DNA of 64,000 nucleotides from Candidatus Cloacimonadales bacterium (GTDB lineage Bacteria > Cloacimonadota > Cloacimonadia > Cloacimonadales > JAIOQZ01): NCBI GenBank assembly GCA_963665815.1, contig OY762463.1, positions 1,856,001-1,920,000 on the forward strand, given 5' to 3'. The position numbers were made by a program. Shown one piece after another: positions 15,001 through 18,000 of the stretch. The first letter of the stretch is position 1. Every line of letters starts with the position of its first letter.

Positions 15001-18000
15001 GTCGGTTCTCGCTCCGCTTATATGAGTAATCCGTACTCTGATGGTTCGTATGGATTCCTTACTTGGAATAAAAATGAATTGAGAGAAACAATCCTCCGGG
15101 CTGCAGAAAACGGCATTTCTTCCACTGTTCATGCAATTGGTGATAAGTGTAATACAATTGTAATTGAAGCAATAACCAATGCAATAGACGAGACCCAACT
15201 GAGCAAGCTGTTCAGAGTTGAACACGCACAATTCATACAGAGCCCAGATATAAAAAAACTGTCTGAGTACAACATTTTTACAGCCATGCAGCCTATACAT
15301 ATGAAATACGATATTACTAACATTCATAAATTTCTGCCATCATCAGAGTCGCTGGCATATAGAACCAGAGATATATTAAGCTCAGGGATCAAGGTTGGAT
15401 TTGGTTCCGACGCTCCGGTCGCAGAGATCAATCCTTTCCACTGTATATACTCGGCACTAAGCAGAAAAGCAGGCAACAGACCTGACGAACAGACCTGGTT
15501 CCCGGGTCAGGCTATTACTCCGATAGAAGCACTAAAAGCCTTTACGATAGACGCAGCCTATGGATCTATGTCATCTGAATCACTGGGATCATTGGAACCA
15601 GGTAAATATGCCGATCTGATCGTAATTGACAACTTTGAGGGGAAACCTGATGAATTCTGGCTTGACGTGAAATCACAATTGACGATGGTGAACGGAAAGA
15701 TTGTATATAACAATATAGAGAAGTAGAAAGGGAAAATTATGATAAAACAAATAAGTGTAATAGGACAAAGTGGAATTATAGATGAAGATTTACAGAAGGC
15801 TGCCTTCAGAATAGGTAAAGCAATCGCAGAAAACGAAAAGATACTGATCTGTGGAGGAAGAGACGGAGTAATGGAACAGGCCTGCAAGGGTGTTCATTCA
15901 GTTGGAGGAACTTCTGTGGGGATAATGATGGGATACGATAAAGAAGAAGCAAACGAGTTTGTTGATATTGTAATACCTACCGGATTGAATCAGGCGAGAA
16001 ATACTTGTGTTGTCTCGTCAGGAGATCTCGTAATTGCTATTGGTGGTTCTTATGGCACACTCAGTGAAATAGCTCTGGCGAAATCAATGGGAAAACGAGT
16101 AATTGGCTATAATACCTGGTCAGGCAAGGGTCATGTTTCCGATCTGGAAATAGAAAATAAATCAGTTGACGAAATATGCAGGATATTAGCAGACTGTTAA
16201 CAGATTTCAGAAATAGTTGTAATTTAGCAACATATGGATTTTCTAATTTTTTTAATAAAAAAAACATTGACATCAAAGTCGGGTTTTTCGAATGTGTTCA
16301 CCTGTAGATTAAATATGGAGATTTAAATGATCATAGCATTATCAATATTGTTCGTTATAATATGTGTTGCAACTGTACTCATAATACTTTCGCAATCCAG
16401 CAAAGGTGCCGGAATGGAAGGTTTACTTGGTGGTGCTGCATCTAACGTGTTTGGTTCACAAGGTGGATCAGACGTTTTGAAAAAAGCAACAAAAGGTCTC
16501 GTTGCTGCATTCTTCATTGTCTCCCTGTTTATCGGCTGGTACATCAACGGTCATTCAAAGCAGACCAAAGTTAATAGTCCTGCTCTTGATAAATATCGTC
16601 AAAAAATGATGAAACAAAAACCGGCAGCTACTCAGGAAGATCTTCAGGAAATGGAAGTTACTCCTACAGAAACAAAAGATACTGATAAGTAAAAAGTACA
16701 TAAGTGATTGCAGAAGTGGTGGAATTGGCAGACACGCAAGACTAAGGATCTTGTGCCCAATGCGGGTGTGCGGGTTCGAGTCCCGCCTTCTGCACCAAAT
16801 ATAAACTAAGACTGTTGAATTTTCAACAGTCTTTTTTATTTATTCAAACTCTTTCAGTGACTGATGTATCCCTTTATGTATCTCATACCAGAAATCGAGT
16901 GCAGATTCGTATTGTTCACGTTTAAACTTTTCAGCCCAGTCCAGCAATCCCTTTTCTGTAGATTTATCTACTTCAATCTTTCTTTTCAGGAAAGTTCTCA
17001 CATAATCAATATTTCTCTGCGATTCCCAGAAGATTCCCGAGTTTCTGCTATTGATACGTGATGCAGTGAGTTTTAAACTGGTCTGGAACTCTTCTCTTAA
17101 GTCATACAGCTTTTCAATAAACTCAGGTAACATCTCTTCTGCCCAACCTCTGTGAAAACGACAAACGCCCATGTTATCCATCACCAGCTCTCCCTGAAAA
17201 CGCTCTGCTGAAAGTTCACCCAAATCTCTGGGTAAGAAGAATTCATTACCATAATACATGTAGTACTTACCCATTATTGCCATTGGAGAAAGCACTCCCG
17301 GAGTCCAGTATTGATTCGGCACCATCCAACCTTTTCTTGCGAAGGCAACATATACAAACTTATCTATTATTGCTTTTCCTTTCTTACGAGATATTCTTCT
17401 GCCGAATTTTCTTGCTCCTTCTGAAAGATCTAACAAGCCACGTTTACCCACAATAGAATCAAGCAGTTCAATAGCAATATCAGCATTATGGTGTGAATCT
17501 TTAACAACATCAAAACCCTCAGGCTCAAAAACAGGCATGTTGGAAATTCCAACCTCATCCATTGTCAGCAGTCCTTCAGATACACAATCCATTAACCAGG
17601 CGAGTACTCCACCCACAGATATAGAATCAAAACCCAGCATGTCTGCATAGTGCACAACTTTTTCCGCAGCTCGTTGATCAAAAATACCGCATAAAGGTCC
17701 CATCGTCTGGTATGGTTCATAGTCTTTCTTATATTTGTTGTTCATTTTTTTACAGAGAGCAGCACAAGGTTCTCCACAGTTTTTCTGTTGCCTAGTTTCA
17801 ATAGTTTCCTCGTTAAACTGTTTCAAATAATGATCCAACACAAGCTCCTTGTGCAGCTTAAGGCGTTTTTCCTCAGTCCAGTAAATACTTTTATAGTTGA
17901 AAGCCAGTATCCTACCGCCTATGCCTGCATAGTTTACTCCGAATGTTCCACCGGTCTTAAATTTCGGATCAAATCTGTATTTGGTGGTGACTTCAAAATC

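What a model noticed while it worked through the whole genome (the two positions that open the first line are those of the whole stretch)
16710..16797. tRNA-Leu(AAG) replaces tRNA-Leu(GAG) across the phylum Cloacimonadota
The only tRNA for CUU/CUC is tRNA-Leu with A34; there is no GAG isoacceptor. The same gene with an almost invariant anticodon arm is the rule across the phylum, which predicts a second TadA inosine substrate in a whole Gram-negative phylum. CUU is the commonest Leu codon.
Evidence so far: ARAGORN cloverleaf, anticodon AAG. AAG in 6 of 7 family relatives (best hit in the 81%-complete genome is the CAG tRNA). The AAG pattern matched 66 of 71 phylum genomes in all 10 families sampled and the GAG pattern 1 of 71; reversed-pattern controls 0. 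tadA g3076 is 47% identical to B. subtilis TadA. CUU is 32% of Leu codons, 41% in ribosomal and elongation genes. PMC13249217 (passages, call 46) lists Lactobacillales, Mycoplasma and Prochlorococcus, with no Cloacimon* mention; search 47 gave 0 papers.
(Added by a program. Inside this text positions count along the whole contig: contig position 1,856,001 is position 1 of the stretch shown here. "Call 12" and the like, gene names such as g00115 and contig names such as C1 are that model's own, and its searches are not shown. The text may have been shortened before it was handed on; [...] marks where a part breaks off. The agent that wrote the report below was given it as the finding of a first reader that could run no searches.)

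Follow-up and report, generated by a model that had tools for sequence, protein, structure and literature searches.

The report
Leucine tRNA with A wobble, phylum-wide
A real leucine tRNA gene with the unusual anticodon AAG has replaced the normal GAG form throughout one phylum of uncultured bacteria and, as it turns out, in parts of several other phyla; it is probably edited to inosine, as already shown in streptococci, but the editing itself was not seen here.

Summary
Observation confirmed. Window 16710-16797 is tRNA-Leu(AAG), 17 nt behind secG, the slot of E. coli leuU(GAG). The genome has no GAG tRNA.

AAG arm patterns match 199 of 232 phylum genomes and 146 of 151 high-quality ones; the five misses also lack a SecG hit. 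Three GAG tRNAs exist: two on spirochaete-like contigs, one phage-like.

Inosine is inferred (about 0.78), not shown. The loop CUAAGGA fits the streptococcal TadA motif YUAMGRA and differs from the genome's Arg(ACG) loop only at position 35. TadA keeps its catalytic residues, and GC-rich members use CUC more than CUU. RNA contigs showed only A but could not test editing.

Two corrections. CUU is the top Leu codon here but in 0 of 7 other members sampled. The phylum is not unique: AAG replaces GAG in 46 of 48 Hydrogenedentota, 46 of 53 Fermentibacterota and parts of three more phyla. A38 accompanies A34 in 142 of 146 AAG genomes and 0 of 170 GAG genomes.

New member of a known kind. This scan noted Leu(AAG) earlier in three other bacterial lineages.

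The parts
16710..16797 (+). tRNA-Leu(AAG) gene, long variable arm, A73, encoded CCA
   Evidence: alignment with relatives
16737..16753 (+). anticodon arm: 5-bp stem, loop C32 U33 A34 A35 G36 G37 A38 (anticodon 16744-16746)
   Evidence: the same 18-mer, exact, in 148 of the 150 matches listed (2 listed matches had one mismatch; 56 further matches not listed)
16327..16692 (+). secG, 17 nt upstream of the tRNA; marks the locus as the secG-leuU slot
   Evidence: Pfam SecG E 2e-17; E. coli secG-leuU(GAG) 14 nt apart; SecG next to the tRNA in 29 of 30 loci plus 4 of 4 rescue loci
16808..16843 (+). intrinsic terminator-like hairpin (11 pairs) with T-run, also scored on the opposite strand; closes a probable secG-tRNA transcript
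   Evidence: 3 found, 0.5 expected in shuffles; consensus match only

Best explanation
This is the phylum's orthologue of leuU. G34 became A34 before the sampled families split, and the GAG form was lost. The loop took on the sequence of the tRNA-Arg(ACG) loop except at position 35. LeuRS charges it with leucine (inferred: A73 and long variable arm; bacterial LeuRS largely ignores the anticodon, established knowledge). The single TadA deaminates A34 to inosine (inferred), so the mature tRNA-Leu(IAG) reads CUU and CUC, and CUA weakly, beside tRNA-Leu(UAG) and (CAG). Shown: gene, synteny, absence of a native GAG, TadA with intact catalytic residues, loop identity, codon use. Inferred: charging, editing, decoding.
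For: (1) The loop CUAAGGA matches YUAMGRA, the extended TadA consensus of S. pyogenes, where Leu(AAG) is fully edited (PMC11472039 passages). (2) The phylum's own Arg(ACG) has loop CUACGGA with G37, so only position 35 differs. (3) Across five other phyla A38 goes with A34 in 142 of 146 AAG genomes and 0 of 170 GAG genomes; no genome has both (hand counts of stem-paired hits; 385 genomes searched, 69 with no true hit). In Fermentibacterota both forms sit behind secG on the same backbone. Changes at 32, 37 and/or 38 are reported to block TadA (PMC11066159 passage). (4) TadA is found in 209 of 232 genomes and 148 of 151 high-quality ones. H57, E59, C87, C90, N46, D108, K110 and N127 are kept in 50 of 50 aligned. 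(5) CUC is not avoided: 8,936 codons in G000, with C/(C+U) 0.24 against 0.18-0.34 in G34 boxes. In GC-rich G027 and G033, CUC is 21-24% of Leu codons and exceeds CUU; the ratio 0.59-0.60 matches 0.61-0.62 in G34 boxes. An unedited AAG/G37 tRNA read U:C at 87:13 in E. coli.
Against: No inosine was seen. In 4 RNA runs the contigs matching the tRNA carried A at 34 and no A>G row was listed. These were contigs only, picked for holding all exact words and mostly running past the tRNA ends, so the test is weak. E. coli TadA does not edit streptococcal Leu(AAG) in vitro and A37G abolished its 15% editing of an orthogonal AAG tRNA, so an adapted enzyme is needed. No TadA residue change common to AAG lineages was found. 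The G000 TadA scores 147.5 bits, just under the NCBIfam cut-off of 150. A TrhP-like U32 peptidase (352 bits, cut-off 534) could widen reading by tRNA-Leu(UAG). A38 also occurs in the genome's Leu(UAG) tRNA, so it may tune decoding and not TadA binding. Four Verrucomicrobiota AAG tRNAs keep G38. Kin are not independent: the 142/146 contrast reflects a handful of origins.
Confidence: 0.78

Rival explanations
1. The tRNA works with unmodified (or only partly edited) A34 and reads mainly CUU. CUC is read by A34 wobble plus a hydroxy/methoxy-U34 tRNA-Leu(UAG). A38 and C32 only tune ribosome binding.
For: Unmodified A34 tRNAs are functional in E. coli (bioRxiv 10.64898/2026.05.15.725136 abstract) and read C-ending codons to some degree. 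A TrhP-like gene is present. RNA contigs show A. In G004 and G023 Leu C/(C+U) is below the G34-box mean (0.19 vs 0.37; 0.27 vs 0.42), and GC-rich Fermentibacterota AAG genomes use CUC less (0.21-0.32) than GAG ones (0.43-0.49); weaker I:C pairing would also give this.
Against: CUC exceeds CUU in G027 and G033. G34 tRNAs are kept in the Val, Ala, Pro, Thr, Gly and Ser boxes, so U34 superwobbling is not general here. There is no cmoA/cmoB hit. The loop equals the TadA motif. Leu(AAG) is edited in the three bacteria the papers report on (S. pyogenes, S. mutans, O. oeni).
Confidence: 0.17
2. The gene is not a mutated leuU. It is a copy of another isoacceptor (CAG or UAG), or a transferred AAG gene, that replaced leuU at secG; decoding as in the best explanation.
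For: The body is closer to the genome's own Leu(CAG) (71 of 88 identical) than to E. coli leuU (66) or Fermentibacterota GAG (63). The same arm sequence recurs in distant phyla. No GAG-bearing sister with this backbone was found in the phylum.
Against: Position behind secG in 33 of 33 true tRNA loci examined. The in-place switch is visible in Fermentibacterota. Acceptor stems differ between phyla, which fits convergence of the arm better than transfer of a whole gene. This rival concerns origin only.
Confidence: 0.2
3. Artefact: sequencing error, pseudogene or mis-called anticodon.
For: None beyond all genomes being uncultured assemblies; the minimum-energy fold is not a cloverleaf (z -1.6), which is common for tRNAs.
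Against: 199 of 232 genomes, invariant arm, canonical Rfam alignment, only reader left for CUC/CUU besides UAG.
Confidence: 0.01

Closest known systems
tRNA-Leu(AAG) edited to IAG by TadA in Lactobacillales (S. pyogenes, PMC11472039; S. mutans / S. pneumoniae TadA, PMC13249217; O. oeni as cited in those papers)
   Same: A34 Leu tRNA in place of GAG, never both; loop CUAAGGA (streptococcal loci); one TadA; UAG and CAG/UAA/CAA isoacceptors kept.
   Different: Different phylum, tRNA backbone and locus (behind secG); fixed in all 17 families sampled, not in some families of an order. TadA has Tyr/Phe/Trp in place of E. coli Arg74 with a one-residue deletion (50 of 50; Arg in 15 of 15 others), Lys at 60 (48 of 50) and Tyr at 118 (50 of 50). 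No phylum-wide CUU dominance. Editing not demonstrated.
E. coli leuU, tRNA-Leu(GAG)
   Same: Directly downstream of secG; same decoding job (CUU/CUC); 66 of 88 positions identical.
   Different: G34, loop U32...U38; needs no editing.
Bacterial tRNA-Arg(ACG/ICG) with TadA
   Same: In most members positions 30-40 are identical to the Leu(AAG) arm except 35 (150 of 235 matches listed).
   Different: Canonical substrate; C35 in place of A35.

Membership tests
tRNA-Leu(IAG)/TadA system of Lactobacillales | Genuine tRNA-Leu gene with anticodon AAG | tested here: met
tRNA-Leu(IAG)/TadA system of Lactobacillales | No tRNA-Leu(GAG) in the genome or lineage | tested here: met
   3 GAG tRNAs among 232 genomes, none beside secG; neighbours 95-96% identical to Sphaerochaeta, 87-90% to Treponema/Spirochaetes, or phage-like and unconfirmed
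tRNA-Leu(IAG)/TadA system of Lactobacillales | TadA with intact zinc and catalytic residues | tested here: met
   caveat: 147.5 bits against an NCBIfam cut-off of 150
tRNA-Leu(IAG)/TadA system of Lactobacillales | Anticodon loop fits the TadA consensus YUAMGRA | tested here: met
tRNA-Leu(IAG)/TadA system of Lactobacillales | Inosine at 34 in vivo | tested here: inconclusive
   contigs only, selected for exact match; A seen, no raw or small-RNA reads offered
tRNA-Leu(IAG)/TadA system of Lactobacillales | Own TadA deaminates the Leu tRNA in vitro | not testable with these tools
   needs a bench assay
tRNA-Leu(IAG)/TadA system of Lactobacillales | Shift of Leu codons from UUA to CUU/CUC relative to GAG-bearing kin | tested here: inconclusive
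   G000 fits (CUU 0.32, UUA 0.165 at 36% GC); G004 and G108 are UUA-first; there is no GAG control inside the phylum
leuU orthologues (secG-linked CUY reader) | Lies directly behind secG | tested here: met

The most novel reading that the evidence does not exclude
tRNA-Leu(IAG) is not a Bacilli oddity but a second, repeatedly evolved bacterial inosine system. In at least six non-Bacilli phyla leuU switched G34 to A34, with a coupled change to A38 (often C32 and A31-U39 too) that rebuilds the TadA recognition loop. Cloacimonadota is the cleanest phylum-wide case and carries a remodelled TadA (aromatic residue in place of Arg74) that may accept UAAG and so also edit mRNA at UAAG sites.
Probability: 0.6. 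Interest if true: 0.68.

Novelty: new member of a known kind. Interest (0 to 1): 0.5.

Why it matters
Recent surveys of GtRNAdb place almost all bacterial tRNA-Leu(AAG) in Bacilli, with Mycoplasma and Prochlorococcus as extras (PMC13249217; bioRxiv 10.64898/2026.05.15.725136). A whole phylum, plus large parts of several others, changes that picture.

The GAG/AAG pairs on one backbone give natural experiments on how TadA gains a second substrate and whether the tRNA or the enzyme changes first. They also test the proposed link between I34 and Leu codon drift outside AT-rich lactic acid bacteria, and point to natural TadA variants with relaxed specificity at position 35.

The mechanism itself is known, and PMC13249217 already guessed it might be widespread, which caps the surprise.

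Tried and rejected
Inosine from public RNA: the run search returned contig-only runs. Four RNA runs from four studies were laid: no A>G, uninformative for the reasons given. No habitat claim is made from the 4-word search.

GAG exceptions in the phylum: 7 of 10 pattern hits are not tRNAs. The other 3 were rejected as native on backbone (55-60 identical positions) and neighbours. The G209 case is only phage-like, not proven foreign.

High-quality genomes without the AAG pattern: of 10 genomes checked for SecG (8 high-quality, plus G225 and G212), 4 had SecG, all followed by AAG; 6 had no SecG hit.

CUU dominance as support: rejected.

A convergent TadA residue shared by AAG lineages: none found in 50 Cloacimonadota, 5 Verrucomicrobiota AAG, 4 Fermentibacterota AAG and 5 Fermentibacterota GAG sequences; no Verrucomicrobiota GAG TadA was sampled.

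A Fisher test on A38 was computed but is not used, because kin are not independent.

Literature gaps: PMC6103674 (Rafels-Ybern 2018) is not held and the 2019 MBE paper was not looked up. Supplements of PMC13249217 and PMC13092985 were unreadable.

Full report
Observation. Window 16710-16797 (+) is a tRNA-Leu with anticodon AAG by ARAGORN and a canonical Rfam tRNA (56 bits). The loop is C32 U33 A34 A35 G36 G37 A38 on a 5-bp stem, with A73 and encoded CCA. It lies 17 nt behind secG (Pfam) and before a terminator-like hairpin. E. coli has leuU(GAG) 14 nt behind secG, so this is the leuU slot. The genome (one contig, 98.66% complete) has Leu CAA, AAG, TAG, CAG and TAA tRNAs and no GAG at default threshold. 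The phylum name rests on named records that carry the near-identical gene (8 of the 120 loci, labelled Cloacimonadota or Ca. Tenebribacter).

Phylum survey. A D-arm+AAG pattern matched 193 of 232 genomes in all 17 families, and an arm pattern matched 196 of 232. The union by hand is 199 of 232, and 146 of 151 genomes at least 90% complete and at most 5% contaminated. The five high-quality misses have no SecG hit either, which fits an unassembled locus. Of 30 loci fetched, 29 are tRNA-Leu(AAG) beside secG and 1 is a chance match; 4 rescue loci are also AAG behind secG. The GAG pattern gave 10 hits in 9 genomes, 3 of them tRNAs, none beside secG. Their neighbours are 95-96% identical to Sphaerochaeta proteins (G077), 87-90% to Treponema/Spirochaetes proteins (G196), or phage-like (G209; unproven). 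G196 and G209 also hold the AAG gene. I read no native GAG in the phylum.

Beyond the phylum. They include streptococci and lactobacilli but also Verrucomicrobiota (with cultured Luteolibacter, Rubritalea and Thalassobacterium), Planctomycetota, Acidimicrobiia/Actinomarina, Fermentibacteria, Hydrogenedentota, Sumerlaeia, myxobacteria, Seleniivibrio, Clostridia and alphaproteobacteria. Ten such genomes checked had no GAG match.

Five phyla were then sampled, chosen because they held an AAG hit, each including its centre genome. Hand counts of stem-paired hits (AAG / GAG / genomes searched): Verrucomicrobiota 27 / 77 / 141; Fermentibacterota 46 / 7 / 61; Hydrogenedentota 46 / 2 / 51; Sumerlaeota 21 / 14 / 41; Planctomycetota 6 / 70 / 91. 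In all, 69 of 385 had no true hit, and none had both forms. Position 38 is A in 142 of 146 AAG genomes and in 0 of 170 GAG genomes. Among the 120 GTDB hits, A38 is in 104 and C32 with A38 in 88. In Fermentibacterota both forms follow secG on one backbone, differing in the loop at 34 and 38 and sometimes 32. These counts stand for a few origins, not hundreds.

Enzyme. One TadA lies at C1:3805843-3806337, 41.8% identical to E. coli TadA. Its best solved relatives are tRNA adenosine deaminases, and it scores 147.5 against an NCBIfam cut-off of 150. TadA is in 209 of 232 genomes, 148 of 151 high-quality, and has a tRNA-Ser(CGA) in the locus in 25 of 30. Zinc and catalytic residues, plus N46, D108, K110 and N127, are kept in 50 of 50 aligned. 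Arg74 is replaced by Tyr/Phe/Trp with a one-residue deletion in the 50 Cloacimonadota sequences, but kept in all 15 others, including AAG bearers. This is a lineage signature, not a general AAG adaptation. That Arg74 lies near bound RNA is recalled and was not checked.

Why inosine is likely. S. pyogenes TadA edits Leu(AAG) fully and has the consensus YUAMGRA over positions 32-38; E. coli TadA does not edit that tRNA in vitro (PMC11472039, passages). The Cloacimonadota loop fits the consensus, and the phylum's Arg(ACG) loop is CUACGGA, so its TadA already meets G37 and only position 35 differs. PMC11066159 (passages) reports that changes at 32, 37 and/or 38 block E. coli TadA on AAG and AUG tRNAs, and that an unedited AAG/G37 tRNA reads U over C at 87:13. 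Yet CUC is used freely: 10% of 88,608 Leu codons in G000 and 13% in 29 ribosomal/elongation genes, with C/(C+U) inside the range of G34 boxes. It is 21-24%, above CUU, in GC-rich G027 and G033 (60 kb each, simple ORF calling).

Against. No editing was seen in RNA contigs, but these were contigs chosen for exact match and mostly extend beyond the tRNA, as precursor or DNA would. A TrhP-like enzyme (below cut-off) may let tRNA-Leu(UAG) share CUC, though cmoA/cmoB are not found and the other G34 tRNAs remain. Leu C/(C+U) is below the G34-box mean in G004 and G023, and in GC-rich Fermentibacterota AAG genomes compared with GAG ones. A38 also occurs in Leu(UAG). CUU is the top Leu codon in G000 but in 0 of 7 other members.

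What is in print. PMC13249217 (outline, section 6, passages) says almost all Leu(AAG) is in Bacilli and names Mycoplasma and Prochlorococcus. bioRxiv 10.64898/2026.05.15.725136 (abstract, section 14, term search) names Firmicutes genera and has no Cloaci-, WWE, Verruco- or Planctomy- mention. PMC8007984 (passages) and PMC6063277 (passages) have no Cloacimonadota mention in the main text. PMC13092985 (passages) mentions the phylum only for tRNA-Trp. Searches (listings only) gave no paper on Leu(AAG) in this phylum or in Verrucomicrobiota. Not seen: Rafels-Ybern 2018 and 2019, all supplements, and GtRNAdb itself, any of which may list a Cloacimonas gene. This scan has noted Leu(AAG) before in Dependentiae, Polyangiales and an alphaproteobacterium (unchecked notes).

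Verdict. A real, phylum-wide replacement; most likely a TadA-made tRNA-Leu(IAG), confidence about 0.78; a new member of a known kind. The broader result, recurrent G34A with coupled A38 in many phyla, is the more interesting part. Interest 0.5.

Noticed in passing
G000:C1:3767207-3767301 (L268, L371), outside the window: A second 'tRNA-Cys(GCA)' scores as tRNA-Sec (Rfam RF01852, 52.8 bits). It sits between a formate-dehydrogenase-like molybdopterin gene and selA; selB is present. The dehydrogenase has a UGU codon at the usual Sec/Cys site followed by a predicted hairpin. It looks like Sec insertion at a Cys codon; such tRNA-Sec(GCA) cases are recalled from Mukai et al. 2016 (not read here).
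   Followed up: partly
G000:C1:1038208-1038284: tRNA-Arg(UCG) beside Arg(ACG), with no CCG found in G000 or G119; genus g2 of the same family has ACG, UCG and CCG; the other listed members have ACG and CCG (150 of 235 matches listed).
   Followed up: partly
L001:1477-1974 (G000 tadA): The tadA reading frame runs into the downstream tRNA-Ser(CGA) in G000 and G119; the loop before the HAE motif is 3 residues shorter in this genus.
   Followed up: partly
L045-L047, L108: In genus g64 and one named record the two presumed TadA substrates are adjacent: secG, tRNA-Leu(AAG), tRNA-Arg(ACG).
   Followed up: no
L271, L272: Tandem duplicates of tRNA-Leu(AAG) in G127 and G102.
   Followed up: no
L264-L267, L111: Verrucomicrobiota AAG tRNAs that keep U32/G38, possible early stages of the switch; TadA is present in the three checked.
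   Followed up: partly
window 16840-18717 (-): Aldehyde:ferredoxin oxidoreductase family gene, nearest NCBIfam model archaeal GAPOR (352 bits, cut-off 1300); similar genes were noted earlier in this scan.
   Followed up: no
L233-L235 (G203): UUG makes up 50% of Leu codons in a 60 kb sample of this small (1.5 Mb) genome.
   Followed up: no
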